Part shown: positions 1-64,000 of the stretch, piece after piece
Numbering within the stretch: the first letter of the stretch is position 1
How the letters are laid out: each line of letters starts with the position of its first letter
IMG/VR virus record: IMGVR_UViG_3300032156_000002
Location: 9,023 to 73,022 of that record
Strand: one strand, 5' to 3'
Length of the DNA: 64,000 nt
DNA from: a virus
Lineage: Duplodnaviria > Heunggongvirae > Uroviricota > Caudoviricetes
The notes under the pieces: generated by a model
Seen by the model: only the letters and a program-made list of their open reading frames with translations
Database searches by the model: none
Told to the model about the DNA's origin: nothing
Made by a program: the position numbers and the translations under genes

Positions 1-1127
1 TATTCGATGTCCTTCGCAACAGCCCCAAGACCCTCGCCGAACTCTCGCGCATCTTCGACCGAAGCCCCGAGACAATTACCAAGCGGCTCGACACCCTTGA
101 GGTTGAGGGCTGGTATCTGATTCGCGAGAACGACCAAATCAGCGTGCCGGTCAGCCTGCGGCCTCGGGTCACGGTGCCCGTCGCGACACTTGCCGATGTC
201 GAGGGCCGCGAAATCAGCCTCGGCGTATCGAGTGACCTTCACGCCGGGTCGCGTTGGGCACAGCCGACGGCATACAACAAGTTCAGGCGCATTGCCTACG
301 ACGAGTTTGGGGTGCGGATGTTCCTTGAGCCGGGCGACAAGACGGCTGGCATCTACGGCTACAAAGGGCAGGACCAAGACCTGATACCCGCGTGCCGCCC
401 CGTGAGCCGTCAGGATAGTTATGGTGCGACCTACAATCAGGTGTGGCTCGCCAGCCAGTGCATGGTACCTCTTGAGGGCGCGACCACTTATATCCTCGGC
501 GGCAATCACGACTGGTTCCACGTGACGGCGAACGGCCACGACCCGGTGAAGATGCTGTGCAGTCAGCGCACCGACGTGATTTACTGTGGCTACGACCATG
601 TGAGCATCCCGCTCACGAAGGACATGGACGTAAGGATGTGGCACCCGAGCGGCGGAATTCCCTATGCCCGGAGTTATCGAATGCAGAAGGGACTTGAGAG
701 CCAAGCCTTCGCCGACTTGCGGACGGCTATCGCCAAGGACAGGACGCCCAAGGTCTCGGCGCTTATCGCCGGGCACTTGCACATTGTCATTCCAGTGCCG
801 ATGATGCCAATTATGGGATTGCACCCCGGATGCTTCGAGGCGCAGAGCAACTACCTCAAGCGCAAAGGACTTGTACCCGACGTGGGCGGCAGTATTCTCA
901 CCTTCCGTCTCACAGAGAATGGCCACGTCCAGCGTATCACGTGGACGTGGATTCCCTTTGACGAGATTGAGGACGACTGGGAGAACTGGCCGCTTCCCGA
1001 GGAACAACACTCGCGATTCGAGCCGGATAACGTCGGCGTGATATTCTCGTTCCAAGAACTTCGTGACCCGAAACTCACGCCCGCCGGACCCGTGCCAAGT
1101 GGCCCCGAATACTCGGGAGCGCACTAG
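1..1127 (+). CDS. 5'-truncated HTH plus calcineurin-like metallophosphoesterase. The reading frame is open to the window start; the listed Met at 144 is internal.
   Basis: Frame open from nt 3 with no stop. N-terminal SPKTLAELSRIFDRSPETITKRLDTLEVEGWYLI is winged-helix like. Downstream motifs DLHAG, GGNHDW and GHLHIVIP match metallophosphatase signatures. Confidence 0.6.
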   Translation, partial: FDVLRNSPKTLAELSRIFDRSPETITKRLDTLEVEGWYLIRENDQISVPVSLRPRVTVPVATLADVEGREISLGVSSDLHAGSRWAQPTAYNKFRRIAYDEFGVRMFLEPGDKTAGIYGYKGQDQDLIPACRPVSRQDSYGATYNQVWLASQCMVPLEGATTYILGGNHDWFHVTANGHDPVKMLCSQRTDVIYCGYDHVSIPLTKDMDVRMWHPSGGIPYARSYRMQKGLESQAFADLRTAIAKDRTPKVSALIAGHLHIVIPVPMMPIMGLHPGCFEAQSNYLKRKGLVPDVGGSILTFRLTENGHVQRITWTWIPFDEIEDDWENWPLPEEQHSRFEPDNVGVIFSFQELRDPKLTPAGPVPSGPEYSGAH

Positions 1128-1223
1128 GTCCGAACGTGTTGGTATTATCAAGGCGGTGGTCTAAACTGTAGGTAGTCATGCGGGCAGGCATGACCTCCCT
1201 CCCTCGCGGGGCTAAGGCCCCCA

Positions 1224-1260
1224 GCGCCGTGTCTTGGCAGAGACGCGGCGCTTCCTTTTC
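1224..1260. terminator. GC-rich hairpin plus T-rich tract between convergent genes, a possible bidirectional intrinsic terminator.
   Basis: gcgccgtgtcttggcagagacgcggcgc followed by ttccttttc, lying between the + gene ending at 1127 and the - gene ending at 1259. Confidence 0.3.
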
Positions 1261-1597
1261 AGTTTGGGCTTGGGGCCAGACCCAGTATCCACATCACCGG
1301 CGGGATTACCAAAGCCGCGTTGGGGACAGGGATGTGGGTGCATTCCCGTCCTATCTGATTCGCGTTCGCCCAGTCCCACCACAACCGGTAGAGGATGGCA
1401 TGCTGGAACATCCCGAGACTCAATCGCGCGCGCATGTAGGCCAGCACAGGGTCGTCGGGGAAGATGATAACGCCGCGGTCGCAGTCCATGCAGTAGATGC
1501 CTAGCGCGTCGCGGCCGTCTTTTTTCACCCAGCCGTGATACTGGCGGACGGGCATGCCCGTTGCGGCGTCACGGAGAGGATAGAAGTCGCGTGTCAC
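1259..1597 (-). CDS. Hypothetical protein, 112 aa. The start may be an internal Met at about 1555, since the ORF overlaps the next gene.
   Basis: ORF track. No recognisable motifs. Confidence 0.35.
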   Translation of the reverse strand: MTRDFYPLRDAATGMPVRQYHGWVKKDGRDALGIYCMDCDRGVIIFPDDPVLAYMRARLSLGMFQHAILYRLWWDWANANQIGRECTHIPVPNAALVIPPVMWILGLAPSPN

Positions 1598-1865
1598 GCT
1601 TGCTCGGCCTCGCGTTGGTCACGGGGTGGCCTGTCTTGCGCGGCTTGGTCTTGAACGCGAGTACGTCCTCGCGGCGCATGTACCACGCGCGCCCAAACCA
1701 CGTGGCGAGCAAACGCTTTTCCTTGATGAAGGCACGCACCCGGCGCGGGCTGACGCCAATCATGTCAGCCGCGGTTGCCACGGTGAGCATGCCCTTCATC
1801 ATGTCGGCGTAGTGGTCGCGTGCGAGCGCGACCAGAAGTTTGTCAGATGAGCGTGAGCGTGTCAT
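1569..1865 (-). CDS. Small HTH DNA-binding protein, excisionase or MerR-like helix-turn-helix.
   Basis: Start is an internal Met (MTRSRSS...) of ORF 1569..2093. The motif MIGVSPRRVRAFIKEKRLLATWFGRAWYMRREDV is typical of an HTH_17/Xis fold. It abuts the upstream NTase gene with a 4 nt gap. Confidence 0.5.
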   Translation of the reverse strand: MTRSRSSDKLLVALARDHYADMMKGMLTVATAADMIGVSPRRVRAFIKEKRLLATWFGRAWYMRREDVLAFKTKPRKTGHPVTNARPSKRDTRLLSSP

Positions 1866-1869
1866 GGGC

Positions 1870-2700
1870 TTATTGTACCACAGTCGGCATGCTTGGCTTG
1901 TCGGGCCAGCCCGCGAGCACCACTTGGACGCACAGGTTGTGGATGGCCTCGCGGTCGGGCTGGGCCGGGAGGGTTGACGCGAGGTAGGCATCCTCGGACC
2001 GCTTGAACAGGTCATCCGACAGCGCCTTGACCCGCTCAAGGCTCCACTCGCCCCGTTTGATTTCCAAGAGTTCGGTCGCGTCCTCGCGTTCAACGTACAA
2101 CTCGCCGTCCTTCAGGAACTCTATGCCCATGCGCAGGAGCCGGACGAGGTGCGCCGCGTTCTTGGTGTCGTAGCCGAACTTCTCCACGAGCGCCTTGCGC
2201 TTTGCGCCCATAAACCCCTCGAAGGCCCCGTGGGTCATGCGGTGAAGTTGGCCATAGGCATAACCTGTGAAGGAGCGGTAGACGTGGCGGCCGACGAACA
2301 GGCGGCGGCTGTCGAGAATCAACTGCCCAGCGGGTTCGACGCGCAGGTAGTATTTCTCGGGGAGCCACAGCATCATCAGGACATTCGGGTTGCCTTGGGC
2401 GAGCAGGCCGATGAACTTGCGGGCCTCATATACGACAATATCCCACTCGTCGTGTTTGATTTCGCGGGTCCCTCGGTGGGCGAACTCCAACAGGCCGACA
2501 TAGTATTCCATCGGCGGCACGCACACGAACATCACATCCTTGTCATCAATGCTCGTGGCATCGGAGTTTGGGCGGTAGGTCCCGTGGGCTATTGAGCCTC
2601 GGTAGCCCGCCAGAATGGCCCACTCACTCAGGAACGGCTTGCCGTCGGTAATCGAGCGCGGGATTGTCATTTTTGTGTCCTCTTCTTTGCCGCCCGCCAA
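1870..2700 (-). CDS. Nucleotidyltransferase-fold protein, Pol-beta-like NTase, possibly RlaP/DUF4037 family.
   Basis: GSIAHGTYRPNSDATSIDDKD matches the hG[GS]...[DE]x[DE] NTase active-site pattern. 276 aa. Confidence 0.5.
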   Translation of the reverse strand: MAGGKEEDTKMTIPRSITDGKPFLSEWAILAGYRGSIAHGTYRPNSDATSIDDKDVMFVCVPPMEYYVGLLEFAHRGTREIKHDEWDIVVYEARKFIGLLAQGNPNVLMMLWLPEKYYLRVEPAGQLILDSRRLFVGRHVYRSFTGYAYGQLHRMTHGAFEGFMGAKRKALVEKFGYDTKNAAHLVRLLRMGIEFLKDGELYVEREDATELLEIKRGEWSLERVKALSDDLFKRSEDAYLASTLPAQPDREAIHNLCVQVVLAGWPDKPSMPTVVQ

Positions 2701-3344
2701 GTCTTACAGGCGACGGACAGTTTTGCACGGGTTTCGGGGCCAAGTGTGCGACCGCGCATTGCGGAACTTATGCGCGCGCGAGTCTCGGCTGTGTGAGTAT
2801 GTCCGCGATGCGCGATACTCATGCGTGCGCGACTCTCGGCTGTAACCGTGTGCCCGCGCAACGCGACGCTAAGGCGCGTGCGCGTTTCGGGGCCGAAGAT
2901 ACGTCCGTGCCGTGTGTTACTCATCCAAGCGCGGGTCTCGGCTGTGTGAGTACGTCCGCGATGCGCGATACTCATGCGTGCGCGACTCTCGGCTGTAACC
3001 GTGTGCCCGTGCAACGCAATACTCATGCGTGCGCGCGTCTCGGCGGTGCGCGTGACGCCCAGCGAGGAGGTCACGCATTTCTTGCAGATGTTGTAGTGCC
3101 CTCGGACGTTTACCAATCCCTGTTCGTAACGTGTGAGTTCGAACGGTTCGCAGATGACGACAGTTCTGAACTCGAATGCGCCCTCACCGTACTTGCGAAA
3201 CGTGGCCTGCAAGTGCCGATTGATATGCGTTCCACGGCGCAGGGCGCGAAGATGACTGAGTAGCCGAGATTCGACGCGACAACTCTGCCCAACATATCCC
3301 CGCCCGTTACGCAGGTTTCGAATGGCATAAACGCCGGTGCTCAT
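2667..3344 (-). CDS. Free-standing GIY-YIG homing endonuclease with tandem NUMOD3 DNA-binding repeats.
   Basis: N-terminus GVYAIRNLRNGRGYVGQS...R...H...E matches the GIY-YIG core. The C-terminal half has at least 5 repeats of TAETRARMS-type NUMOD3 motifs. Confidence 0.8.
   Translation of the reverse strand: MSTGVYAIRNLRNGRGYVGQSCRVESRLLSHLRALRRGTHINRHLQATFRKYGEGAFEFRTVVICEPFELTRYEQGLVNVRGHYNICKKCVTSSLGVTRTAETRARMSIALHGHTVTAESRARMSIAHRGRTHTAETRAWMSNTRHGRIFGPETRTRLSVALRGHTVTAESRARMSIAHRGHTHTAETRARISSAMRGRTLGPETRAKLSVACKTWRAAKKRTQK
2760..3060. repeat. Tandem imperfect direct repeats of about 45-50 bp, coding for the NUMOD3 repeats of the homing endonuclease.
   Basis: gtgtgagtatgtccgcgatgcgcgatactcatgcgtgcgcgactctcggctgtaaccgtgtgcccg recurs with variants. 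Confidence 0.7.
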
Positions 3345-3375
3345 TCGCCTCCCATCAGAGTGCGTGCGCGATTGT

Positions 3376-3525
3376 CATAGCCAGCCGTACTCTAGGGCCA
3401 GTCCGAGCGCGAGCAGGCCCACGAGAAACACGATGGTCAGAATCAGGTTGCGCGTGTTGGCCCGGCGCTCGGCGTCGGTCATCGCACAGTCCTCGGGCGT
3501 GTATTCCATGAAGTTCATTGGCATT
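3376..3525 (-). CDS. Small membrane peptide of about 49 aa, MPMNFMEYTPEDCAMTDAERRANTRNLILTIVFLVGLLALGLALEYGWL. Coordinates are within 1 nt.
   Basis: Not in the ORF track because it is under 60 aa. AGGAG RBS lies 6 nt upstream. One predicted TM helix. Confidence 0.35.
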
Positions 3526-3542
3526 GTCGTTTCTCCTGTTGG

Positions 3543-3746
3543 TTAGACGGATGGCGTCACACCCTTGAAGCGGGCGCGGAGTTCCGTGCGGAGCGCCATG
3601 ATTCGCGCCTCGATACCTTGCATGTCGGCATACTCGGCGGGGTGCGCCAACTTCATGTGGATGCGGAGCAACTCCCCGACCTGATAGCCATGGCCACTCA
3701 CTTCCACTTGGCAGAGCGGGCACTTGCGTAGTTGAAGCATATTCAC
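3543..3746 (-). CDS. Hypothetical 67 aa protein with CxxC.
   Basis: ORF track. Tightly packed with neighbouring genes. Confidence 0.45.
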   Translation of the reverse strand: MNMLQLRKCPLCQVEVSGHGYQVGELLRIHMKLAHPAEYADMQGIEARIMALRTELRARFKGVTPSV

Positions 3747-3776
3747 TCCCGTGGTAAATAAGGGCCTAACGGTAAA

Positions 3777-4304
3777 TTAGGCTCCTGTCTTGTGGATGCG
3801 CAGGGCGATGCGCGCGACGGTCGGGATTTCCGGGGCCACCCTGAACAGCCGGTCCTTGGCCGCCTGAATCTCCGCGTTGTCCTCGTCGGCCAGTAGGCTC
3901 TTGAGAGCCTCGGCCATAGCACCGTCCGAAGTACCGGCGGCCAGAGCCGCGGCGATGTGCTCACGGACGGGATTGGCCGCCCGTGTGGCGGCAATCACTT
4001 CGTCCTCGGAATCGGTGCGCGAGTTGCGGCCCAGTCCGGCATAGGCGCGACCGGCGAGGTACGCGGCCTTGCCAGACAGGTGAGCCAGCGCGGCGAGCGC
4101 CTCTTGCAACAGCATGTCGCGGTCGGTGAGCGGCACGCGCTGGACATTATTGTCAAAGGCGAGGCCGTCGCCAAGTCGCCTCATCTCCGCGTCGTGGATG
4201 ACCACGTTGATTTGGTCAACCACCGGCCGACTCCCCGATGGCCCGCGGCTCGGGTCAACCAGTTCGTCGCGGGCGACTTTCAAGGCAGTCAGTAGGTCAA
4301 TCAT
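3777..4304 (-). CDS. Hypothetical protein, 175 aa.
   Basis: ORF track. Overlaps the next gene by 8 nt. Confidence 0.5.
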   Translation of the reverse strand: MIDLLTALKVARDELVDPSRGPSGSRPVVDQINVVIHDAEMRRLGDGLAFDNNVQRVPLTDRDMLLQEALAALAHLSGKAAYLAGRAYAGLGRNSRTDSEDEVIAATRAANPVREHIAAALAAGTSDGAMAEALKSLLADEDNAEIQAAKDRLFRVAPEIPTVARIALRIHKTGA

Positions 4305-4902
4305 GGGTCTCTCCCTCTACGGACTTCGAGGCCGCGAGCGCGCGGTCAGCGCGCAGTGCGACCATCTTCCAGTTCTTGGCGCGGCGCAGTGCCGCCTTGG
4401 CCTTGCCGTCCCATTCCTTCGCCTTGGCGAGAGCGTGCTCGCGCCGCTCCTCGCGTTTTTCACTCAGGGTCGGCTTGGGCTTGGCGACCGGAATGCGAGG
4501 CTCGACCTTCACCGTTGCGGCCCAGTCATAGACAGGCCCCTCACCGCGCCAGCCGTTGCCCATTTGTTTGTGGGTCAGGCCGCGGATGGCATGGGCCATC
4601 TCGTGCACCACGACATAAGCGAAGGCTTTGCCGTTGAACGTCGCGGTGCTTGTAGCCACGCTCCCAAACTTGCGCGAGCGACGGATGATGGCCGGGCGCG
4701 GCACGCGCACCGTGGCGTCGCGCGAGTTCCGGTAGGCGTAGCCACTATAGGGACCGCGCGAGCGCCAAGCGTTACCCTTGCCGTAGATGACATGCAGAAC
4801 GAAGCGGTCGAGACGCCGCTGTTCGAACTCGCCGCGCGCCACACGGCAGGCGATGGTCTTGAGTGCTCGGGTATCCCAGTCTGTGCGATTGTCAATCTTC
4901 AT
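4297..4902 (-). CDS. SprT-like or zincin-like metallopeptidase domain protein with an HEMAH motif.
   Basis: VVVHEMAHAIRGLTH HExxH motif followed by a lysine-rich charged C-terminus. Confidence 0.5.
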   Translation of the reverse strand: MKIDNRTDWDTRALKTIACRVARGEFEQRRLDRFVLHVIYGKGNAWRSRGPYSGYAYRNSRDATVRVPRPAIIRRSRKFGSVATSTATFNGKAFAYVVVHEMAHAIRGLTHKQMGNGWRGEGPVYDWAATVKVEPRIPVAKPKPTLSEKREERREHALAKAKEWDGKAKAALRRAKNWKMVALRADRALAASKSVEGETHD

Positions 4903-4973
4903 TGGGCCTCCATGTCAGTAGGACCACTCGACTTTCGTCTCCCGGCAAATCCACCGGCAGACCTCGGATAACC

Positions 4974-5005
4974 CTATTGTACCACATGCGGAACACTTTG
5001 TCAAG
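4974..5005 (-). promoter_or_regulatory. Conserved sigma70-like promoter, family copy 1, firing leftward.
   Basis: Reverse complement reads cTTGACAaagtgttccgcatgTGGTACAATagg, with -35 TTGACA, a 17 nt spacer and an extended -10. Confidence 0.5.
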
Positions 5006-5048
5006 TTGAGCGAATCATCAGGGCCGGTTGCCCGGCCCCGATTCGACA

Positions 5049-5291
5049 TTATTTGCCCGTGAAGATTAGACTTGCGCTTGACCAGAACACATAGGCCCAC
5101 ACGGCCACGAGCGCGGCGTCGCCCACGATGAGGACCTTTTGCAGTGTGCGGCGAGCCTTGGCGTTGTCGTTCAAGGTCCCCGCCCTGAGTATGCACACGT
5201 CGTCCACGATGTGCCGCATGCCGATGACGACCATGAGCAAGGCGAAGATTATCAATGCCGCGCGAAGGATTTGCATAACCGATTCGGGCAT
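5049..5291 (-). CDS. Small membrane protein, 80 aa, 2 TM.
   Basis: Hydrophobic stretches LIIFALLMVVIGM and AALVAVWAYVFW. Confidence 0.45.
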   Translation of the reverse strand: MPESVMQILRAALIIFALLMVVIGMRHIVDDVCILRAGTLNDNAKARRTLQKVLIVGDAALVAVWAYVFWSSASLIFTGK

Positions 5292-5300
5292 ATCTCCTCC

Positions 5301-5663
5301 CTATAGTCTCTCGACCCGCGCAAGCCAATTCGCGATTTCGGTCGTGGTGATGAGCAGGTGGTCGCGGTGCGGTGCGATGAAGTGGAACTTGAAGTCGTGA
5401 TGATGCGCCCAGCACTGCGGCGTGGTGTCGCGAAAGTCCTCGCGGCTGGGTCGCTCGCCGAAGTAGTCGGCAAGAATGCTCAGAGCAAGGTCCGCCGGTC
5501 CGCTCCCGCCGTAACCCATCTCGAAGCCGGTCGGGCTGTGCCACACCACGTGGTACAGCGGCCGTCCGTCCACGGTCGCCAGAACCTCAGCGCCCTCGTG
5601 TCCGCGCCTCGCCTCGTATACTTTGTCAACCGGTTTGTCGTTCACGTTCCCTCCAATGCACAA
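5301..5663 (-). CDS. Hypothetical protein, 120 aa.
   Basis: ORF track. Conserved-looking WHSPTGFEMGYGGSGPADLA segment. Confidence 0.5.
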   Translation of the reverse strand: MCIGGNVNDKPVDKVYEARRGHEGAEVLATVDGRPLYHVVWHSPTGFEMGYGGSGPADLALSILADYFGERPSREDFRDTTPQCWAHHHDFKFHFIAPHRDHLLITTTEIANWLARVERL

Positions 5664-5738
5664 TTGCGGATAGTCACTAGGATAAACAGACCACCGGGGC
5701 GCGGCTACCGCACGGCCGCGCCCGGATGGAATGCTTTG

Positions 5739-6398
5739 TTACAGACCTCCGGCCCACGAACTGATGGTAGCGGTGAGACGGTCGAACTCAGGTGAGACCT
5801 TCTCGGCCCAGCGGGTGGCCGACTCCAACTTGGCCAGCCCGCCGTCTACATCGCCGTCCCCGACGAGGCCGATGGCGTCACGCAGGTCACGGACCGAGTT
5901 CTCCATGTAGGTCTGCGCGTTGTCCGCGTCATCACGGAAGCAGGTGGGTATGTTACTGCGGTTCGCCTGCACCCGGCGATAGATGGAGTCGGCTTCGTTG
6001 TACCAACCGGGCCAGTCGAAGTCGGCGGTCGAAGTGATGCGGTCCGTCAGTTGCGCGCCCTCGGTGAACAACGCGGCGCTGGTCTCTGCCCAATTCACGA
6101 TACTCTGCATTTCGCCGATGGTGCACCCGAACGGGCCGGTGGGCGCAGGCACGGCCGTTGGCGGTCGAGCCGTCGGCTTCGCCGCCTGTGCGGGTTTGGC
6201 CGTGGGGACCACCGTGACGTACACAATCTGAGGCTCGCCTTGCACGGACCCTGCGCCGGGGTCGGTGCGAACGATGAGCGCGGTCAACAGACAGATGACG
6301 GTCATCAGGCCGACGAAACCCACGGCCAGCGCGACCCACGCCCAACCCGGTAACTTGCTCTTGGTATTACCAATCCCGTTGCTCGGCATGCTGTTCAT
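5739..6398 (-). CDS. Membrane-anchored protein with an N-terminal TM helix and a Pro/Ala-rich linker.
   Basis: Start at the internal MNSMPSNG of ORF 5739..6527. Followed by WAWVALAVGFVGLMTVICLLTALIV. Confidence 0.5.
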   Translation of the reverse strand: MNSMPSNGIGNTKSKLPGWAWVALAVGFVGLMTVICLLTALIVRTDPGAGSVQGEPQIVYVTVVPTAKPAQAAKPTARPPTAVPAPTGPFGCTIGEMQSIVNWAETSAALFTEGAQLTDRITSTADFDWPGWYNEADSIYRRVQANRSNIPTCFRDDADNAQTYMENSVRDLRDAIGLVGDGDVDGGLAKLESATRWAEKVSPEFDRLTATISSWAGGL

Positions 6399-6426
6399 TG
6401 TTATCTCCTCGGCTGAATGCTCCCGC

Positions 6427-6720
6427 CTATCGGCGGGGCTTCTTGTCCGTGTGGATTGCCCACGGACCCTCGGCCACATGGCCGGGAACGAACCGTTGAC
6501 AGTTGCCGCACTTCTTGCCATGGGCATTGAGCGCCTGCGCCCACGTTCGATTGATGACGTACCCTCGCCCGCACATCGCGGGCAATGTCACGCGGCCCGG
6601 CAGGCCACTCGACTTCCGGTTGCTCCGCGTGCGGGCATCCGGCACGAGCGTCAGATGCAGATTGTGCTCGGTCTCGCCGTCGCCGACCCACTCGGCTTTC
6701 CCAAACTTGGTCTTGACCAT
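6427..6720 (-). CDS. Hypothetical Cys-rich 97 aa protein.
   Basis: ORF track. CGRG...CGNC pattern. Confidence 0.4.
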   Translation of the reverse strand: MVKTKFGKAEWVGDGETEHNLHLTLVPDARTRSNRKSSGLPGRVTLPAMCGRGYVINRTWAQALNAHGKKCGNCQRFVPGHVAEGPWAIHTDKKPRR

Positions 6721-6741
6721 CCCGCGCTCCTCTCAGTGCCT

Positions 6742-6772
6742 AATTATACCGCCTGCGGAACAGTTTGTCAAG
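6742..6772 (-). promoter_or_regulatory. Conserved promoter, family copy 2, firing leftward.
   Basis: Reverse complement reads cTTGACAaactgttccgcaggcGGTATAATtagg. Confidence 0.5.
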
Positions 6773-7028
6773 GGACGCCACAATAGTCCCGTTTTGCGCC
6801 TTCCTTGCGGAGTTGGATGGCGCGGGTCGCGGCCAGTTCCAGCGTTTGGTGCGCAGAGTCGCGCTTCCATGCCCTGTGATAGGCGACCTGCTTTGTCACG
6901 ACCCACCACCCGTGACCGCGGACGCTTTGGGGCGGCGAGTAGGTGATGGCCACGTTCGGAAAGCCGTAGCCTACTTGGATACGGGGCAACGAGTGTCTCA
7001 GTTTCATCAGTCGTTCAATCGCTGTCAT
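6768..7028 (-). CDS. Hypothetical 86 aa protein.
   Basis: ORF track. Confidence 0.4.
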   Translation of the reverse strand: MTAIERLMKLRHSLPRIQVGYGFPNVAITYSPPQSVRGHGWWVVTKQVAYHRAWKRDSAHQTLELAATRAIQLRKEGAKRDYCGVP

Positions 7029-7347
7029 CTTCGTCCTCCTCGGTATCTTCGCAGACTGCGCCCAGCGTTGCGGCTACGCGCCGCCCGTCCTCGTTGAGTG
7101 TATACAAAATATAGTCATGCGTATTCGATTCGTATACGGTCGAGAGGTAGACCTTCATCAACAGGCGCTTGACCGTGGCCGTCCCGACCCGCTCGTTGCC
7201 TAAGTAGTAGACCCCCGCCCCGTCGGCCCACGTCAGGTCGGCCTCGTCGTTCTTGGCCAGCGCGCACAAGACCCATTTCTCCCTCGGAGTCAGGGGAACG
7301 CGCCGGAGAGCGTTTATCAATGCCATGCCTTCCTCGTAGGCGTTCAC
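7015..7347 (-). CDS. Hypothetical 110 aa protein with an acidic C-terminus.
   Basis: ORF track. Confidence 0.45.
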   Translation of the reverse strand: MNAYEEGMALINALRRVPLTPREKWVLCALAKNDEADLTWADGAGVYYLGNERVGTATVKRLLMKVYLSTVYESNTHDYILYTLNEDGRRVAATLGAVCEDTEEDEDDSD

Positions 7348-7736
7348 GTCGTGGTCTCCACGGCACTTGCCACGTCCACGATGCTATCGGCGCGCTCTGG
7401 CATGGTCTGCAACAGCAACAGGACGCTGTTCATGGTCTCCTGTACGGCCATGGGTCCAAGGCCGCGCAACGTCCTGAGCGCGGCGATGGCGCGATGTTTG
7501 AAGTCCAGAGCGCCCAGCCTCAGTGTCTCGTCCAGAGACAGCGGATTGAGCGGCGTAGTGTTGGCGAGTAGTCTCTCGCGCAGAATCGCGAGGTGGCCGA
7601 TAACCACGAGGTCCGCGTCGGCCCCCGAGCCGTGATGGCCGCGCCGCACGTTCGCTCGGTGCTGGCGGTCGGCGCGACCGATACGGCGGTCAATCAGGCG
7701 CAACAGCATCTCTACTTCCTTGGCGGTCAGTTCCAT
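7344..7736 (-). CDS. Hypothetical protein, 131 aa.
   Basis: Start at the internal MELTAKEVEM of ORF 7344..8132. The upstream part of that ORF is Arg-rich junk. Confidence 0.45.
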   Translation of the reverse strand: MELTAKEVEMLLRLIDRRIGRADRQHRANVRRGHHGSGADADLVVIGHLAILRERLLANTTPLNPLSLDETLRLGALDFKHRAIAALRTLRGLGPMAVQETMNSVLLLLQTMPERADSIVDVASAVETTT

Positions 7737-7786
7737 GGGAATCTCTCCCTCTACGAAGGACGGCGTTGCGCATCGCGCAACACAGG

Positions 7787-8290
7787 CTATGCGTGCAACG
7801 GTCCGCCACAACGCGGGCAGGTCTCTCCCCCGCAGTACGGGCAGGCGTCGTGAACATCGGCGGGCAACGGCGGCCCCGGCTTGCGTTCCCACTCGTGATG
7901 CCAGCCATCCTCGCCGGTACCGAACCGACTGTGCACGAGGAAGGCTCCCTCTTCGCGCCAGTCGCCGGACCCGAGTTTCGCGCCCGTGCTCATCTTTGCC
8001 CACACCTTGGCCAGCCAACCCTTGGCCGTGGTGCGCGGGTCGCGCACGGCGTTGTAGTAGTAGTTCGTGACCAGCCGCCAGATACTTCGCGGCCAGCCCT
8101 GAGCGGGCCGTACCGTTCCGCACTTCGGGCACAGCGGCTCATCTGCGGCCTTGTTGTCATCCTCGTCCTTCCACGGATGCGAGCACTTTGGGCACTGGCT
8201 GTAAATCTCCCAAGCCTTTGCCTCGACCCGGACCTTGCGATAGGACCCGTCGGCCAGTTTTTCAATCCCGTTCGGTAGCATCTCGGTCAT
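7787..8290 (-). CDS. Cys-rich, Zn-binding-like protein, 167 aa.
   Basis: CPKCSHPW...CPKCG...CPYCGGETCPRCGG, multiple CxxC pairs. Confidence 0.5.
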   Translation of the reverse strand: MTEMLPNGIEKLADGSYRKVRVEAKAWEIYSQCPKCSHPWKDEDDNKAADEPLCPKCGTVRPAQGWPRSIWRLVTNYYYNAVRDPRTTAKGWLAKVWAKMSTGAKLGSGDWREEGAFLVHSRFGTGEDGWHHEWERKPGPPLPADVHDACPYCGGETCPRCGGPLHA

Positions 8291-8769
8291 GGTTGGCTCC
8301 TCACGGCCTTGCGCGGACGCCGGGCCAGTCGGTCGTGGTGGAGTTCGATGGGCAGGATGGACACGCAGTAGCCCTCGTCGTTGGCTGGGTACGGTGGTCC
8401 GGCTTGGTAGTGAAGGTTCCCGCCGTAGAGTTCCTCGCTCAATTCCGTCTCCACTATCCAGTCCTCGACCTTGACCTGCGGCCTAGCCCGCAGGCACCAC
8501 CCGGCACACCACATGCTGGCCGCGGTGAGGTCGTCGGTCAGATAGTAGGCCACGTCCTCGTGCGGGTCCTCGCCAATGGCGAGGTACAGCCGCCCCGGCT
8601 TTTCGCGCGCGCGCCGGTGATAGTGCTTGGCGATGACCGCGGCGAACCCGCGTATTTCCGTCTCGTCGGGGTATCCCTGCCGCCCGGCGCGAGCGGTCTC
8701 CTGCATGTCGCGCGCCGTGCGCACAAGGTCCTTGGCCGCATTCTCAATCCAATGCGCAAACTTGGTCAT
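8287..8769 (-). CDS. Hypothetical protein, 160 aa.
   Basis: ORF track. 4 nt overlap with its neighbour. Confidence 0.5.
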   Translation of the reverse strand: MTKFAHWIENAAKDLVRTARDMQETARAGRQGYPDETEIRGFAAVIAKHYHRRAREKPGRLYLAIGEDPHEDVAYYLTDDLTAASMWCAGWCLRARPQVKVEDWIVETELSEELYGGNLHYQAGPPYPANDEGYCVSILPIELHHDRLARRPRKAVRSQP

Positions 8770-61637: not shown

Positions 61638-61638
61638 C

Positions 61639-62574
61639 ATGCTTGGCAAAGGTGTCTATCTGTGGAAGGTCTACACGATTGACGGTGGCGACGCGCGCGT
61701 TCTCGCGCGCCGTCTCCATTCGATGCAGGTCCAGCGCCTCGACGTGAAGGTGGCCGACGGCGCGAAGGTCCACGCCATCGCGGCATGGGAGAAGCCCGGC
61801 TGGGGCGAGAACGTCAAGGCCGAGTGGGTCGCCACCTTGCGCGACGAGTGTGCACGCCTGAACTGGCCGATGGAAGTGTGGGGCTTCGGCTTCGACTACG
61901 GATACGACGCAGTGGGCGAGGGAGCAATCCTCGGGTCGCAGGTCAACCGGCTCGGCTTGGACGGTGCCATTGCCGACCCCGAGGGCGTGTTCGAGGGACA
62001 AGTCAATGCGGTTGGCAAGGCGCGCGATATGGGAAGCGCCTACCATGCCGTCTGCCAGAAGCCAATAGCGATTGCCACGTGGGCGCTTTGGAGAAATCCT
62101 GTCACACTCGCACCCTATCACAATGTCGAGTGGGGCAAGGCGCTCATGGAGTGGGCCGACTATGGCGCGCCGATGGTCTACTGGCAAGGGCAAGGCGCAA
62201 AGGCCGCAGTCTCCTACCTCGACAATTGCATTGCTCAGTGGCGGTCTCTCATAACGAAGAAGCCTCTCCTGCCCGCAGGTCGCGCCTACGTGGGCGACGG
62301 TGGGACGGTGGATGTTCCCGGCATCACGGCATTCGGCCAGCGCGTGCGAGAACTCGCCGCGGCGACTGGCATCGTGGCCAGTCCCATCGCAGGTGAGTCG
62401 TGGTGGAATCTCGGGAGTGTCATCAAGTACCCGGACTGCTTGGCCGCTCTCTCGGCCTTGCCGCCCTACGCCACTGGCGTACAACCCTATCCGACCGCGC
62501 CACTTGCCGAATGGGCCGCGGCCTTGACCGCGCACGCGCGAACTCAGGGATACAGGGGACCGAGCCTCGCATGA
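61639..62574 (+). CDS. Hypothetical protein, 311 aa.
   Basis: Internal Met of ORF 61537..62574. No confident domain assignment. Confidence 0.45.
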   Translation: MLGKGVYLWKVYTIDGGDARVLARRLHSMQVQRLDVKVADGAKVHAIAAWEKPGWGENVKAEWVATLRDECARLNWPMEVWGFGFDYGYDAVGEGAILGSQVNRLGLDGAIADPEGVFEGQVNAVGKARDMGSAYHAVCQKPIAIATWALWRNPVTLAPYHNVEWGKALMEWADYGAPMVYWQGQGAKAAVSYLDNCIAQWRSLITKKPLLPAGRAYVGDGGTVDVPGITAFGQRVRELAAATGIVASPIAGESWWNLGSVIKYPDCLAALSALPPYATGVQPYPTAPLAEWAAALTAHARTQGYRGPSLA

Positions 62575-64000
62575 AAACTCTGTCCGGTGCACTCCGCAGG
62601 ATTATCAATCGCGGTGGTCCCGGCTCGGGTCACTATGGCCATCGTGGCCGTCCGGGCCGGGTTGGCGGGAGTCTGGCCGAGGACGGTCTCTCGACAGGCG
62701 AGCCGTCGGCGTGGGCCTCGAAATACAGAACGGGAAGCGGGCCGCTCAATGCGGAGGCGCTTGGCGAGGACGTTCGCCGCGCGGTCGATGAGCGCCCAAG
62801 TCGCGCGACGCATGGGAACACAGGCAAAAACGCATTCTTCCTCGTTGATGGCAAAATCTACTCGTGGGACAAGTGGCAGGAAATACCGAAGGCCGACCTC
62901 CCCCGTGCGGTGCCCGTTCATTCGCACGGCGGCGACAATTGGGAGTGGTTCGTAAAGCAACAGGGACAACTTGAGGACTTCCAACCGCAAAATCCCGCCG
63001 ACATAAAGTTGTGGCTCAAGGGTTTTGCCGCCGGTCACATGGGTCCTATTGCGGCGCTCATCATGCCCGACGGAAGGATGGAGACGCTTGAGATAACCGA
63101 CGCTGTTGACCCTGCGGTGTTCCGCATGAGCATGGCGAAAATAGAGAGCATCATCTATCGAAAGTACCCGGAGAGGTCCGCCTATTACCAAGAACACAAA
63201 TCTGACGCGGACTACCACAACTATAAGCAAGAGGTCGAACTCCTGACGAAGTTCGCACGGGACTACGGGCTACGCTATACCCGGAACCTGCGCTGGCGCG
63301 ACAATCCGACACCCTATTCTTCGCGCGAGATTTTTCTCGAAATGCGTGGCGGCCCCGGCTCAGGTCACTTTGGCCATGCTGGACGACCGGGCGAGGTGGG
63401 CGGGAGTGCGCCGAGCGGAGGATTATCAATCGGTGAGCCGCGCGAGTACGACCCGACTGAGCCGAAATACGGTGTTGAGTTCAAGATGACGGACGACGCC
63501 ATTGGCAGGGCTTGCCGCAAGGGTTGCATTGAGGCGTTGAAAGAGTTTGCCAGCGCCATGCACGCGAGACCGCGCGGCCTGTTGATTACCAATGATGTAG
63601 GATTGTTCTTCGGCGTCTCACCGAACGCCGATGTCGCGCAGAAAATCGAAGGTGGAGCATTCGGGTGCGCCGACGGCCGGAAGATTTGGGTGCAGGACAG
63701 ACTCGATACACAGAAACAGAAAACCTCGTGGATTGAGATGTCCGGCGGCCTCATGCCGGAAGAATTCTCTCCCGGCCACAAGGCGTGGAAGCGAATGGTC
63801 TACCACGAACTGGCCCACATCGCCACGATGTCCGATGTCATGGGCGACATGAGCGGCCTGCAACTCCTGACCGACCCATCCCTAGACCCGGAACCAGCCT
63901 ATAAGGAAGGGGCAGTGAGGCGCTACGGGGATGACATCACCACCATCCAAACCGAATACGTTGCCGACCTCGTTGCGGCCTACGTTGCGAAGGCAAGTGG
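62571..64000 (+). CDS. 3'-truncated polyvalent protein running off the window, with 2 linker motifs and an HExxH zincin-like domain.
   Basis: The frame is open from ATG 62571 to the window end, and is absent from the ORF track because it has no stop. Linkers at about 62610 and 63345. YHELAHI at about 63802. Confidence 0.6.
   Translation, partial: MKTLSGALRRIINRGGPGSGHYGHRGRPGRVGGSLAEDGLSTGEPSAWASKYRTGSGPLNAEALGEDVRRAVDERPSRATHGNTGKNAFFLVDGKIYSWDKWQEIPKADLPRAVPVHSHGGDNWEWFVKQQGQLEDFQPQNPADIKLWLKGFAAGHMGPIAALIMPDGRMETLEITDAVDPAVFRMSMAKIESIIYRKYPERSAYYQEHKSDADYHNYKQEVELLTKFARDYGLRYTRNLRWRDNPTPYSSREIFLEMRGGPGSGHFGHAGRPGEVGGSAPSGGLSIGEPREYDPTEPKYGVEFKMTDDAIGRACRKGCIEALKEFASAMHARPRGLLITNDVGLFFGVSPNADVAQKIEGGAFGCADGRKIWVQDRLDTQKQKTSWIEMSGGLMPEEFSPGHKAWKRMVYHELAHIATMSDVMGDMSGLQLLTDPSLDPEPAYKEGAVRRYGDDITTIQTEYVADLVAAYVAKAS

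What the first reader, a model, noticed from the sequence alone, without database searches (positions are those of the whole stretch)
1..64000. Strongly strand-asymmetric, over-represented AT-rich octamer (G)ATTATCAA
By eye I count about 30 occurrences of TTATCAA on the + strand. Most are in the extended context GATTATCAAyC. Examples lie near 1145, 5258, 7313, 9284, 16253, 19293, 19678, 22234, 22373, 24296, 26946, 33517, 35568, 35713, 39647, 39745, 48196, 48518, 49756, 50796, 51903, 52294, 54446, 56146, 56388, 60727, 62601 and 63421. About 20 further near-variants occur, such as ATTGTCAA and ATTTTCAA.

Its reverse complement TTGATAA appears only about once.

For a 7-mer with six A/T positions in DNA of about 67% GC, the expectation is below 1 copy per strand. 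The enrichment is therefore about 50-fold and essentially + strand only.

The motif occurs in both transcription arms and in different reading frames. In one frame it encodes the G-L-S of GLSTGE. So it is probably a DNA-level signal tied to replication, packaging polarity or recombination. It might be a Chi-like or KOPS-like element, a nicking or methylation target, or a dispersed protein-binding site, rather than a coding or mRNA signal.
Basis: seen in the sequence. Interest (0 to 1): 0.7.

Follow-up and report, generated by a model that had tools for sequence, protein, structure and literature searches.

The report
Dense single-strand-only motif in phage genome
An uncultured phage of about 100 kb carries an AT-rich signal (consensus GATT-N-Y-CAATC) roughly every 400 bases, always on the same DNA strand whichever way the genes point, and avoids it on the other strand; it most likely marks target sites of a strand-specific DNA enzyme such as a nickase, at a far higher density than in the nicked or Chi-rich phages I could compare it with.

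Summary
TTATCAA occurs 30 times on + and once on -. The true core is ATT-N-Y-CA (116:2). The 9-mer GATTNYCAA occurs 54:0, against 2.7 expected on both strands together. A weight matrix gives 153:8, about one site per 420 bp.

The signal acts at the DNA level:
- It lies in all three reading frames, in intergenic DNA, and at similar density in the opposite-strand gene arm.
- Against a synonymous-codon null, the + strand is enriched (95 observed vs 23 expected) and the - strand is depleted (1 vs 14).
- Sites avoid spacings under 100 bp.
- Sites are missing from a strain-variable 4-kb island.
- Polarity holds over 70 kb here and over 43 kb in a relative.

GC-rich relatives share the motif in two flavours, ATTNTCA and ATTTCCA.

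Best explanation (about 35%): recognition sites of a phage-encoded strand-specific endonuclease, like the nick sites of phages tf/LUZ24, phiKMV and T5, but 10-30 times denser. Rivals are Chi-like sites, KOPS-like guides, Type III/ISP restriction geometry, and priming or modification sites. No conserved nickase was found and nicks cannot be shown from sequence.

Some TTGTCAA copies are the -35 boxes of sigma-70-like promoters and are a separate feature.

The parts
1..64000 (+). Field of polar motif sites: core ATT-N-Y-CA, extended consensus S-ATT-N-Y-CA-A-t-c (quasi-palindrome GATT / NYC / AATC).
   Evidence: There are 116 core sites on + and 2 on -. Starts: 75, 783, 894, 1144, 1305, 2060, 2663, 3371, 4149, 4888, 5248, 6366, 8740, 8925, 9132, 9752, 10431, 10696, 11013, 13053, 14261, 14872, 15209, 15497, 15925, 16084, 16253, 16677, 17277, 17466, 17643, 18306, 18642, 19548, 19676, 20435, 20667, 20942, 22243, 22372, 22529, 23492, 23615, 23928, 24221, 24296, 24497, 26279, 26617, 27249, 27745, 28183, 28854, 29059, 29339, 29842, 30391, 31028, 31767, 32624, 33110, 33353, 33519, 34305, 34714, 34854, 35563, 35721, 36933, 37498, 37831, 39038, 39646, 39748, 43403, 44833, 44974, 45214, 45680, 46093, 46844, 47446, 47525, 48516, 48831, 49042, 49756, 50440, 50795, 51321, 51913, 52291, 52440, 53586, 53787, 54444, 54589, 55311, 56143, 56389, 56683, 56944, 57503, 57673, 57789, 58593, 59838, 60098, 60203, 60643, 60730, 62071, 62601, 63184, 63422, 63585.
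5247..5257 (+). Example site GATTATCAATG inside a gene on the - strand (antisense to the coding strand).
9131..9141 (+). Example intergenic site GATTGTCAACA within the minus-strand gene arm.
52290..52300 (+). Example full-consensus site GATTATCAATC in frame 0 (Ile-Ile-Asn) of the 1939-aa gene. The site is conserved in relative L030.
35720..35730 (+). Example site GATTATCAACC in frame 2 (Gly-Leu-Ser-Thr), using the rare codons TTA and TCA.
50439..50449 (+). Site GATTGTCAATA in the 808-aa gene. It is conserved at the homologous position in L030, L021 and L016, and replaced by a G+C-rich synonymous version in L006.
7736..7742 (-). One of only two core matches in the opposite orientation (ATTCCCA).
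   Evidence: About 14-19 are expected.
36809..36815 (-). The second opposite-orientation core match (ATTGTCA). It is the complement of a + strand TTGACAAT.
1259..11962 (-). Gene arm transcribed from the - strand. The motif stays on the + strand here (15:1 for the core; 11:0 inside the called genes).
39755..44832 (+). Motif-poor island with one core site (43403) in 5 kb. It has lower GC3. Indels and segment replacements relative to a near-identical strain (L001) lie at 38.4 kb, just upstream, and at 42.1-43.3 kb, inside the island.
46583..48172 (+). Large terminase gene. It is the reference for polarity: the motif is on the terminase-coding strand.
   Evidence: Terminase_6N/6C.
2667..3344 (-). 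GIY-YIG endonuclease with about seven NUMOD3 repeats. It is a candidate (weak) for a site-specific nuclease.
   Evidence: GIY-YIG E 1.9e-6; NUMOD3 E 7.6e-13. One search shows that the nearest homologues are only 34-44% identical, so it is not conserved in the clade.
19007..19807 (+). MmcB-like PD-(D/E)XK nuclease-domain protein (phrog_5429), 750 bp upstream of a DNA methyltransferase gene. It is a candidate (weak).
   Evidence: PF06319 in homologues. One search shows that 40%-identical homologues occur in phages without the motif.
20562..21956 (+). N6/N4 DNA methyltransferase, beta class, with a large central insertion. It is a possible modifier of an asymmetric site.
   Evidence: It is conserved in both motif-positive and motif-negative relatives.
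26347..27018 (+). Second, small N6/N4 DNA methyltransferase.
12400..12427 (-). NOT part of the motif family. This is a near-consensus sigma-70 promoter whose -35 box TTGACAA reads as TTGTCAA on the + strand. Similar promoters lie at 12234-12262, 6743-6771 and 4976-5004 on -, and start at 36611, 38919 and 39831 on +.

Best explanation
The motif is the recognition site of a strand-specific DNA enzyme that is probably phage-encoded. The most likely type is a site-specific nicking endonuclease. On this view the phage DNA carries, or can acquire, single-strand interruptions at GATT-N-Y-CAATC sites, all in one strand. This is the same kind of feature as the localized nicks of phages tf/LUZ24, phiKMV and T5, at 10-30 times their density.

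**Shown:**
- The signal is at the DNA level and polar.
- It is positively selected on one strand and counter-selected on the other.
- It is evenly spread.
- It is shared, with small changes in specificity, by a clade of related G+C-rich phages.

**Inferred:**
- That the enzyme nicks rather than only binds, translocates or modifies.
- That opposite-orientation sites are avoided because nicks in both strands would give double-strand breaks.
- That spacings under 100 bp are avoided because very short nicked segments would fall off.
- What the nicks would do is not known for any phage.
For: 1. **One-strand exclusivity independent of transcription.** The core is 116:2. It is 15:1 in the arm with - strand genes. 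It occurs in all three frames plus intergenic DNA. Counting the 5.9 kb left of the window, it is 125:3 over 69.9 kb, across several changes of gene direction.
2. **Two-sided selection against a synonymous-codon null.** Genic + sites are 95 observed vs 22.6 +/- 4.1 expected. Genic - sites are 1 observed vs 13.8 +/- 3.5, with a minimum of 5 in 300 simulations (Poisson P 1.5e-5). An orientation that is harmful when inverted fits an enzyme that cuts one strand.
3. **Spacing.** Only 4 of 152 gaps are under 100 bp, against 32 expected (P 2e-11). Density is even at 8-15 sites per 4 kb.
4. **Site anatomy.** The arms GATT...AATC are palindromic around an asymmetric NYC core, about 13.5 bits in all. This fits a dimeric protein that reads double-stranded DNA with a built-in direction.
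5. **Precedent (PMC3517423).** Phage tf has 14 experimentally mapped nicks, all in a 9-bp motif (TACTRTGMC) that occurs only on the top strand of a genome with two convergent transcription arms. All 17 near-cognate sites are on that strand. Relatives use a slightly different main site at similar positions, and the authors propose co-evolution of nickase and sites.
6. **The same pattern here.** Two flavours (ATTNTCA, ATTTCCA) occur across relatives, and 4 of 10 aligned sites are conserved between the window and L030.
7. **Slow build-up.** Recently exchanged DNA (the 40-44 kb island) lacks the motif, so sites accumulate slowly in resident DNA.
8. **Nuclease genes exist in the window.** These are the GIY-YIG/NUMOD3 gene at 2667-3344 and the MmcB-like PD-(D/E)XK gene at 19007-19807.
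Against: - Nicks cannot be seen in an assembled sequence.
- No nuclease was found that is conserved specifically in motif-positive phages. The GIY-YIG protein has no close orthologue. MmcB-like homologues occur in phages without the motif.
- The density (116-153 sites per 64 kb) is far above any reported nicked phage (4-14 major sites; T5 has additional minor ones). The nicked strand would then be cut into pieces of about 400 nt.
- The trait is patchy on the tree of the 808-aa protein and restricted to members with 60% G+C or more. That pattern would also fit a host-encoded recogniser.
- About a quarter of the source genome lies outside what I could read, so a reversal of polarity or a candidate enzyme there cannot be excluded.
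Confidence: 0.35

Rival explanations
1. Chi-like sites. The motif is the host RecBCD/AddAB regulatory sequence, accumulated in the orientation that protects and recombines the DNA end exposed during rolling-circle replication and packaging.
For: - Precedent (PMC12315714): phage LLS has 23 Chi sites (20:3). [quoted passage not shown] In both, the sites lie on the strand that carries the terminase genes.
- The motif here is also on the terminase-coding strand.
- Flavour and presence are patchy on the tree of the 808-aa protein and limited to G+C-rich members, as expected if the host dictates the sequence.
- Weak host hints come from MAG bins of Chloroflexota.
Against: - The known Chi sequences I recall or read (E. 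coli GCTGGTGG and Pseudomonas GCTGGCGC; the B. subtilis, L. lactis and S. aureus ones from memory) are G-rich 5-8-mers read on single-stranded DNA. This motif is an AT-rich quasi-palindromic 11-mer in a 62% G+C genome.
- Density is 2-3 times that of the Chi-rich phages, and uniform rather than clustered at one end.
- Counter-selection of the inverse orientation (1 vs 13.8) and avoidance of short spacings are not predicted by this model.
- Chi-rich phages lack a recombination module. This phage has a Rad52-like annealase (E 8.9e-7) and an SSB (E 2e-26) just left of the window.
Confidence: 0.15
2. Orienting sequences for a directional DNA translocase (KOPS/SRS-like). The motor might internalise, package or clear the phage genome, and must always be loaded in the same direction.
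For: - There is uniform polarity over at least 70 kb here and 43 kb in a relative.
- Harm from inverted sites and a benefit from dense, even coverage are both expected.
- The 8-mer with a central N resembles the form of KOPS GGGNAGGG (own knowledge).
Against: - No FtsK/SpoIIIE-type or other translocase domain was detected in the window.
- Terminase-driven packaging starts from a cut end and has no known need for guide sequences.
- I know of no precedent in tailed phages, and one literature search for skewed octamers, Chi or KOPS in phage genomes turned up none.
Confidence: 0.12
3. Geometry imposed by a Type III or Type ISP restriction enzyme, host-encoded or phage-encoded, that cuts only between head-to-head sites. 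The phage survives because all its sites point the same way.
For: - The inverse orientation is strongly depleted.
- A 7-bp asymmetric site with N and Y is the style of Type ISP and Type IIG/III recognition sequences such as CTnGAyG (own knowledge).
- T7 has all 36 EcoP15I sites in one orientation (own knowledge).
- The patchy distribution among relatives would fit dependence on the host.
Against: - It gives no reason for a 4- to 20-fold excess on the + strand.
- It does not explain the conserved flanks G(-1), A(+7), T(+8), C(+9).
- It does not explain the even spacing.
- No Res-type helicase-nuclease was found in the window.
Confidence: 0.08
4. Initiation sites for lagging-strand or displaced-strand priming by a phage primase, placed on the strand that is always the lagging-strand template in unidirectional replication.
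For: - The polarity is uniform.
- The spacing (median about 300-500 bp) is of the order of Okazaki fragments.
- G-C skew rises in the same direction over most of the window.
Against: - Known primase sites are trinucleotides (own knowledge).
- Inverted sites would be harmless, yet they are removed.
- No primase, helicase or polymerase gene was found in the 70 kb read.
Confidence: 0.08
5. Target of a strand-specific base modification, made by one of the two phage methyltransferases or by the sugar-transfer genes.
For: - Two N6/N4 methyltransferases are encoded, one with a large insertion typical of enzymes that read asymmetric sites.
- A GDP-sugar and glycosyltransferase cluster lies at 12-19 kb.
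Against: - Being a modification target does not by itself explain enrichment, polarity, depletion on the other strand or spacing.
- The 464-aa methyltransferase is equally present in motif-negative relatives.
Confidence: 0.07
6. By-product of coding: codon usage, a repeated peptide, or an mRNA signal.
For: - 45 of 67 sites in + strand genes are in one frame (ATT-NTC-AAn, which encodes Ile-hydrophobic-Lys/Asn).
- Several sites encode G-L-S-T in repeated virion proteins.
Against: - The motif has the same strand and a similar density in genes on the other strand and in intergenic DNA.
- It uses rare codons (ATT, TTA, TCA).
- It is 4-fold above a null that keeps the proteins and the codon usage.
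- Ordinary coding bias in relatives favours the purine-rich complement instead.
Confidence: 0.01

Closest known systems
Localized single-strand interruptions of Pseudomonas phages tf, LUZ24 and PaP3 (motif TACTRTGMC)
   Same: - A short asymmetric motif is found only on one strand of a genome with two opposed transcription arms.
- Near-cognate sequences are also absent from the other strand.
- The preferred sequence shifts between related phages, and some positions are conserved.
- The enzyme is unidentified (PMC3517423).
   Different: - Those phages have 8-14 sites per 45 kb, against 116-153 per 64 kb here.
- The phage lineage is unrelated (about 100 kb, uncultured).
- The motif here is an AT-rich quasi-palindrome.
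- Nicks are demonstrated there and not here.
Nicks of T5/BF23 and of phiKMV-like phages
   Same: - Interruptions occur in one strand only.
- The function is unknown, and in T5 it is dispensable.
- T5 has a genome size (about 120 kb) similar to this lineage.
   Different: - The T5 consensus (R/GCGCRGG) also occurs on the un-nicked strand, so its sites are not strand-exclusive.
- phiKMV has only about 4 sites, with a 19-bp consensus.
- The proteins examined from the window show no close relative among deposited phage genomes: TerL reaches at most 38% identity and the 808-aa protein gives no match.
Chi-rich lambdoid phages (LLS, MD8, JBD68)
   Same: - One octamer is the most frequent in the genome.
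- It lies almost only on the terminase-coding strand.
- It was accumulated by selection (PMC12315714).
   Different: - Those motifs are the host's G-rich Chi, clustered near one end, at about 1 per 1.3-1.9 kb, in phages without recombination genes.
- Here the motif is AT-rich, evenly spread, 3-4 times denser and counter-selected when inverted, and the phage has a Rad52-like annealase plus SSB.
KOPS / SRS (FtsK / SpoIIIE orienting polar sequences) and other architecture-imparting sequences
   Same: - They are highly skewed 8-mers, some with a central N.
- The wrong orientation is counter-selected.
- They act through a cumulative effect of many weak sites.
   Different: - They are chromosomal, and their polarity switches at the origin and at dif.
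- They are read by the FtsK gamma domain.
- No such motor is seen here, and there is no switch of polarity in 70 kb.
EcoP15I site asymmetry of phage T7
   Same: All copies of an asymmetric site point the same way, and the inverse orientation is eliminated.
   Different: - This is avoidance only.
- There is no extended consensus, no even spacing, and only a modest excess, in a genome where every gene is on one strand.
Stoperators of cluster A mycobacteriophages (L5)
   Same: They are dozens of asymmetric 13-bp sites dispersed through the genome.
   Different: - Stoperator orientation follows the direction of transcription in each arm, and the sites lie in short intergenic regions.
- Here the orientation ignores transcription, and most sites are inside genes.

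Membership tests
Phage localized-nick motifs (tf/LUZ24, phiKMV, T5) | Ligatable single-strand breaks at the motif in virion DNA | not testable with these tools
   Only assembled sequence is available.
Phage localized-nick motifs (tf/LUZ24, phiKMV, T5) | Asymmetric consensus present on one strand only, irrespective of gene direction | tested here: met
   The core is 116:2, and 15:1 in the opposite-strand arm. It is 125:3 over 69.9 kb.
Phage localized-nick motifs (tf/LUZ24, phiKMV, T5) | Near-cognate sites absent from the other strand | tested here: met
   The - strand has 1-2 sites against 14-19 expected. The weight matrix gives 153:8.
Phage localized-nick motifs (tf/LUZ24, phiKMV, T5) | Consensus shifts between related phages, with partly conserved positions | tested here: met
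   There are ATTNTCA and ATTTCCA flavours. 4 of 10 aligned sites are conserved in L030.
Phage localized-nick motifs (tf/LUZ24, phiKMV, T5) | A handful to about 15 major sites per genome | tested here: not met
   There are 54 strict and 116-153 relaxed sites in 64 kb.
Phage localized-nick motifs (tf/LUZ24, phiKMV, T5) | Phage-encoded nicking function | tested here: inconclusive
   GIY-YIG/NUMOD3 and MmcB-like nucleases are present. Neither tracks the motif among relatives.
Chi sites accumulated by phages | Motif identical to the Chi of the host's RecBCD/AddAB | not testable with these tools
   The host is unknown. There are only weak MAG-bin hints.
Chi sites accumulated by phages | Excess on the strand whose 3' end faces the exposed DNA end (the terminase-coding strand) | tested here: met
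   The motif and TerL are on the same strand.
Chi sites accumulated by phages | Phage lacks its own recombination module | tested here: not met
   A Rad52-like annealase and an SSB lie adjacent to the window on the same contig.
Chi sites accumulated by phages | Inverse orientation neutral (not counter-selected) | tested here: not met
   1 observed vs 13.8 expected.
KOPS / SRS polar guide sequences | Skewed 8-mer whose wrong orientation is avoided | tested here: met
KOPS / SRS polar guide sequences | FtsK/SpoIIIE-type translocase with a sequence-reading domain | tested here: not met
   No such domain was found among 75+ window proteins scanned with Pfam and PHROGs. The genome outside the window was not examined.
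KOPS / SRS polar guide sequences | Polarity switch at a replication origin or terminus | tested here: not met
   There is no switch in 69.9 kb here or in 42.9 kb of a relative.
Type III / ISP restriction site asymmetry (T7-EcoP15I type) | All sites in one orientation | tested here: met
Type III / ISP restriction site asymmetry (T7-EcoP15I type) | Pattern explained by loss of one orientation alone (no positive selection) | tested here: not met
   The + strand has 95 sites vs 22.6 expected. The flanks are conserved and the spacing is even.
Stoperator-type repressor sites | Orientation follows the direction of transcription; sites are intergenic | tested here: not met
   The strand is the same in both arms, and 77 of the 89 ATTNTCA sites classified are inside genes.

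The most novel reading that the evidence does not exclude
The motif may be a previously undescribed kind of phage 'self' polarity code: a dense array of orientation-dependent sites read by a phage-specific DNA motor or nuclease. It would be AT-rich, and so presumably rare in a G+C-rich host, which would tell phage DNA from host DNA and impose one direction on a genome-wide process such as attenuated degradation, internalisation or recombination-dependent replication. It would be a phage-encoded analogue of Chi or KOPS rather than a set of nick sites.
Probability: 0.2. Interest if true: 0.9.

Novelty: new variant of a known kind. Interest (0 to 1): 0.7.

Why it matters
- **An open problem.** Strand-exclusive motifs in phage genomes are known from only a few systems (T5, phiKMV and tf nicks; Chi-rich lambdoids). 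The function of the nicks has stayed unexplained for about fifty years.
- **A stronger case to work on.** Here selection has written the signal into the genome more than a hundred times. It forces rare codons into genes on both strands and purges the opposite orientation. The selective value must therefore be large and the responsible protein should be findable.
- **Natural specificity variants.** The clade offers two variants (NTCA vs TCCA) and motif-free relatives (L026 and the 50% G+C members). This is the material needed for comparative identification of the enzyme.
- **Possible tool.** A site-specific nickase with an 11-bp quasi-palindromic site would also be a useful reagent.
- **If not a nickase.** The signal would then be a new type of genome-polarity signal in viruses.

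Tried and rejected
1. **Coding or mRNA artefact.** Rejected by the frame analysis, the opposite-strand arm and the synonymous-codon null.
2. **AGCGAGCCA as a third motif flavour in relatives L008, L010 and L111.** Rejected. It is the repeat of 36-nt-period arrays, not a dispersed motif.
3. **Other strand-biased k-mers in relatives (GAAGAGG, CGGCGAG, TGGTGGA, TATTTTA, and reversed ATTNYCA in A+T-richer members).** These are ordinary purine-rich coding bias: no flanking consensus, and at most 18-fold enrichment against 40-70-fold for the true motif.
4. **Linking the motif to the 464-aa methyltransferase.** It is present in both motif-positive and motif-negative relatives.
5. **Linking it to the MmcB-like nuclease.** Homologues occur in unrelated G+C-rich phages that lack the motif.
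6. **Linking it to the GIY-YIG/NUMOD3 endonuclease.** It has no orthologue above 44% identity anywhere, so it behaves like a strain-specific homing endonuclease.
7. **Phylogenetic profiling of the 30 genes around the terminase.** All conserved genes are shared by positives and negatives.
8. **SNPs near sites as a footprint of nick translation.** The few differences between strains cluster at recombination junctions and are uninformative.
9. **Contig ends as a footprint of nicks.** They do not coincide with sites. Several assemblies break at about 2.9 kb, which is explained by the 51-bp NUMOD3 repeats.
10. **Look-alike binding sites (IHF, DnaA box, FNR half-site, GANTC, DarT TNTC).** Rejected because they fit only some variants.
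11. **Searches that found nothing.** Megablast against deposited phages and tblastn of the 808-aa protein gave no match. phmmer of four ORFans against PDB sequences gave nothing significant; the best hit was E 0.19 to endonuclease III for 35545-36267.
12. **Wasted look-ups.** Three look-ups failed on wrongly guessed start codons or returned only known contigs.

Full report
**1. What the window is**

The 64-kb window has 61.9% G+C. It belongs to an uncultured tailed phage.
- It encodes a T4-type large terminase at 46583-48172.
- Next comes an 808-aa conserved protein at 48340-50766. I presume it is the portal from its position, but this is not verified.
- Giant virion-module proteins follow: a 1939-aa protein with a LigT-like domain, and a 638-aa protein with a zeta-toxin/kinase domain.
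- It also encodes a GDP-mannose dehydratase interrupted by a LAGLIDADG intein, glycosyltransferases, two DNA methyltransferases and one tRNA-Ile.
- Nothing similar exists among deposited phage genomes. TerL reaches at most 38% identity, and the 808-aa protein has no match.
- The sequence comes from metagenomes. The longest contig with the same protein is 96,396 bp, and relatives reach 100-118 kb.

Third-codon-position G+C gives a clear gene map:
- one gene on + up to 1127;
- an arm of about 20 genes on the - strand (1259-11962);
- everything from 12219 to 64000 on the + strand.

**2. The observation**

- TTATCAA 30:1, ATTATCAA 24:0, GATTATCAA 19:0.
- Order-3 Markov expectations are 4.1, 1.7 and 0.75 respectively.
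- Among all 6- to 9-mers, the most strand-asymmetric words are all pieces of one motif.

The motif is broader than reported.
- ATTNTCA 89:1 and GATTNTCA 63:0.
- With C allowed at the sixth base, ATTNYCA is 116:2.
- GATTNYCAA occurs 54 times, all on +, against 2.66 +/- 1.70 expected for both strands together in dinucleotide-preserving shuffles.
- An iterated weight matrix gives the consensus S-[A>T]-T-T-N-[T>C]-C-A-[A>T]-t-c, about 13.5 bits. At 9 bits or more it finds 153 sites on + and 8 on -.
- Written out, the site is a quasi-palindrome, GATT / NYC / AATC, with an asymmetric three-base core.

**3. It is a DNA-level signal**

Of the 89 ATTNTCA sites:
- 45 lie in frame 0 of + strand genes (ATT-NTC-AAn, which encodes Ile-hydrophobic-Lys/Asn);
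- 22 lie in the other two frames;
- 10 lie inside - strand ORFs as called, eight of them in the minus arm and two in small doubtful ORFs that I later discarded;
- 12 are intergenic.

The preference for frame 0 looks like the cheapest way to fit the motif into a protein. It does not look like the cause, for these reasons.
- The motif forces rare codons. 57 of the 298 ATT codons start a motif, and TTA and TCA are used in the Gly-Leu-Ser-Thr reading.
- The minus-strand arm carries 15 core sites on + and one on -. That density is close to the rest of the window.

I resampled synonymous codons in every gene, keeping all protein sequences and the genome's own codon usage.
- On the + strand the null gives 22.6 +/- 4.1 genic sites. 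The observed number is 95.
- On the - strand the null gives 13.8 +/- 3.5. The observed number is 1, and the minimum in 300 simulations was 5.
- Markov models agree: 17-19 are expected on - and 2 are seen.

The motif is therefore selected for on one strand and selected against on the other. The second point is new and is the most useful clue.

**4. Distribution**

- Density is even, at 8-15 matrix sites per 4 kb. The exception is 40-44 kb, which has one site.
- That island has lower GC3. Indels and segment replacements relative to a near-identical strain (L001) lie at 38.4 kb, just upstream, and at 42.1-43.3 kb, inside the island. The motif is thus missing from recently exchanged DNA and builds up in resident DNA.
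- Neighbouring sites avoid each other. Only 4 of 152 gaps are under 100 bp, against 32 expected (P 2e-11). Outside the island the coefficient of variation of the gaps is 0.68.
- Polarity does not change over everything I could reach. A second contig of the same phage extends 5.9 kb to the left of the window and has 9:1. Together this gives 125:3 over 69.9 kb, across several reversals of gene direction.

**5. Relatives**

An alignment of homologues of the 808-aa protein retrieved about 150 loci from metagenomes and IMG/VR.

A subset shows the same phenomenon, always on the strand that encodes the 808-aa protein:
- L030 (66% identity): ATTNYCA 41:2 in 22 kb;
- L005 35:5, L006 46:3, L007 29:3 and L095 38:3, dominated by ATTTCCA;
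- L161 (a syntenic relative): GATTNTCA 14:0;
- weaker but still one-sided: L016 20:3, L117 15:1, L094 13:1, L021 9:1, L091 27:6.

Other points from the relatives:
- Enrichment over base composition is 40-70-fold in the strong cases. Any asymmetric word in other relatives reaches at most 18-fold.
- Walking along the L095 contig gave 42.9 kb, from 10 kb upstream to 33 kb downstream of the 808-aa gene. It has 72:8 at even density.
- In L030, sites on + also lie inside a block of - strand genes.
- Between the window and L030, 4 of 10 alignable sites are conserved. In L006 a shared site is replaced by a G+C-rich synonymous sequence.
- On a neighbour-joining tree of the 808-aa protein, the positives form a broad clade of members with 60% G+C or more.
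- Nested negatives exist: L026 (61% G+C, 8:7) and L008/L010/L011/L111 (48-53% G+C). The two flavours are interleaved on the tree.
- In A+T-richer relatives the complement of the motif is commoner on the coding strand. This is ordinary purine-loading bias, and it makes the polarity in the window all the more striking.

**6. What it is not**

- The apparent third flavour, AGCGAGCCA, in L008/L010/L111 is the repeat of 36-nt-period arrays.
- Four + strand TTGTCAA copies (4998, 6765, 12256, 12421; a fifth at 5623 is a weaker look-alike) and three - strand copies (36617, 38925, 39837) are -35 boxes of a family of near-consensus sigma-70 promoters. The form is TTGACAA-n-GTTCCGCA-n-GGTATAAT, and the promoters point along their genes.
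- The methyltransferase at 20562-21956 is conserved in both positive and negative relatives.
- None of the genes around the terminase separates positives from negatives.

**7. Candidate enzymes**

- The window encodes a GIY-YIG endonuclease with about seven NUMOD3 repeats at 2667-3344 on the - strand. Its closest homologue anywhere is 34-44% identical, so it behaves like a strain-specific homing endonuclease.
- It also encodes an MmcB-like PD-(D/E)XK domain protein at 19007-19807. Its 40%-identical homologues sit in unrelated G+C-rich phages that lack the motif.
- Neither can be assigned to the motif.
- No replication genes occur in the 70 kb read.
- Just left of the window lie a Rad52-like annealase and an SSB.

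**8. Mechanism**

Five facts have to be explained together: a positive function of many evenly spread copies, harm from the inverted orientation, independence from transcription, an asymmetric quasi-palindromic site, and drift of specificity among relatives.

The best documented match is the nick-site motif of phage tf and its relatives (PMC3517423).
- It has 14 mapped nicks in TACTRTGMC.
- All sites and all near-sites are on one strand of a genome with two convergent arms.
- LUZ24 and PaP3 use a slightly different main site, at similar positions.

Under this model:
- inverted sites are harmful because nicks in both strands give double-strand breaks;
- very short spacings are harmful because short nicked segments would dissociate.

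I therefore rank a strand-specific endonuclease site first, at about 35%. Three reservations apply: the density is 10-30 times any precedent, no conserved nickase was identified, and nicks cannot be read from an assembly.

**9. Rivals**

*Chi-like sites* have a direct precedent: LLS 20:3 and MD8 32:0, on the terminase strand (PMC12315714). They would also explain the host-like patchiness. Several points count against them.
- The site is AT-rich and quasi-palindromic.
- The spread is uniform.
- The inverse orientation is counter-selected.
- The phage has its own recombination proteins, whereas the Chi-rich phages are those without such a module.

*A KOPS-like guide* for a directional motor explains the polarity and the harm from inversion. 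It lacks both a motor and a precedent.

*Type III/ISP restriction geometry* explains only the depletion.

*Priming sites and modification targets* do not explain the depletion.

**10. Verdict**

The specific mechanism stays open.
- Nothing comparable in density and strand purity turned up in the papers I read or in my own knowledge, though the literature search was limited.
- I class the feature as a new variant of a known kind (strand-exclusive phage motifs), with a real chance that it is something new.

Noticed in passing
window 4976-5004, 6743-6771, 12234-12262, 12400-12427 (- strand); starts 36611, 38919, 39831 (+ strand): There is a family of seven near-consensus sigma-70 promoters with a conserved spacer (TTGACAA-n-GTTCCGCA-n-GGTATAAT). 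Each points along its genes: four drive the minus-strand arm and three drive the tRNA and small-gene region. On the other strand their -35 boxes mimic the TTGTCAA variant of the motif.
   Followed up: partly
L010 500-1260 and 2090-2870; L008 20-500 and 1360-1920; L111 1-440 and 1380-1540: Lower-G+C relatives carry two long arrays of 36-nt units. Each unit is AGCGAGCC(A), about 10 variable nt, A-r-y-AAACC, then about 10 variable nt. This is the dual-repeat, dual-spacer layout of TIGR arrays (TIGR-Tas RNA-guided systems, PMC12045711), with both repeats ending in CC(A). No Tas gene was looked for.
   Followed up: partly
window 12219-15035 (gene call 12753-15035): The GDP-mannose 4,6-dehydratase gene is split by a LAGLIDADG-type intein. 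The Pfam match comes in two stretches with the LAGLIDADG_3 domain between them.
   Followed up: no
window 2667-3344 (-), repeats 2752-3048: This is a GIY-YIG endonuclease with about seven tandem NUMOD3 modules encoded by 51-bp repeats. Contigs from three other samples all break at about 2.9 kb, probably because of these repeats. A second possible GIY-YIG protein (442 aa, E 0.001) lies left of the window (L173 6122-7450).
   Followed up: partly
window 39755-44832: This block of small genes lacks the motif and has lower GC3. Indels and replaced segments relative to a 99.9%-identical strain (L001) lie at 38.4 kb, just upstream, and at 42.1-43.3 kb, inside the block. It looks like a hot spot for gene exchange just upstream of the packaging genes.
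   Followed up: partly
L173 4012-5517 (0.5-2 kb left of window position 1): A Rad52-like single-strand annealing protein and an SSB are encoded next to a 491-aa Myb-domain protein. The C-terminal part of that protein is window 3-1127.
   Followed up: partly
window 1870-2670 (-), 51886-57705, 57690-59606: There is an RNA-repair theme. It includes an RlaP-type nucleotidyltransferase and an RtcB-like hit somewhere in the gene set. It also includes a LigT/2H-phosphoesterase domain at the N-terminus of the 1939-aa virion-module protein, and a zeta-toxin/AAA_33 kinase domain in the next protein. Together these suggest countermeasures against host tRNA or RNA cleavage.
   Followed up: no
window 38693-38777: The phage encodes a tRNA-Ile (anticodon GAT), which reads ATC and ATT. 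The motif adds many ATT and ATC codons: 57 of the 298 ATT codons start a frame-0 motif. The tRNA may offset that cost.
   Followed up: no
window 53586, 54444, 55311, 60730, 63422 and flanks: A repeated peptide (E/G)GLST(G)E recurs in the giant virion proteins and carries the motif in frame 2. The surrounding DNA (e.g. GGAGTGCGCCGAG...) is also repeated, so part of the motif count in 52-64 kb rides on a duplicated protein module.
   Followed up: no
L158 (contig binned in a Methyloceanibacter MAG, 29% identity in the 808-aa protein): ATCNTCGA occurs 19:2 in 22 kb (8:0 for ATCATCGA), whereas it is symmetric in other G+C-rich loci. It has the same form as ATTNTCAA. However, the copies seem to be in-frame Ile-x-Asp/Glu codons, so this may be coding bias.
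   Followed up: partly
L114, L036, L125/L126: G-rich words related to the E. coli and Haemophilus Chi sequence (TGGTGGA 13:0, CTGGTGG 9:0, GTTGGTG 9-10:0) are one-sided in some A+T-richer relatives. I could not separate this from coding bias.
   Followed up: no
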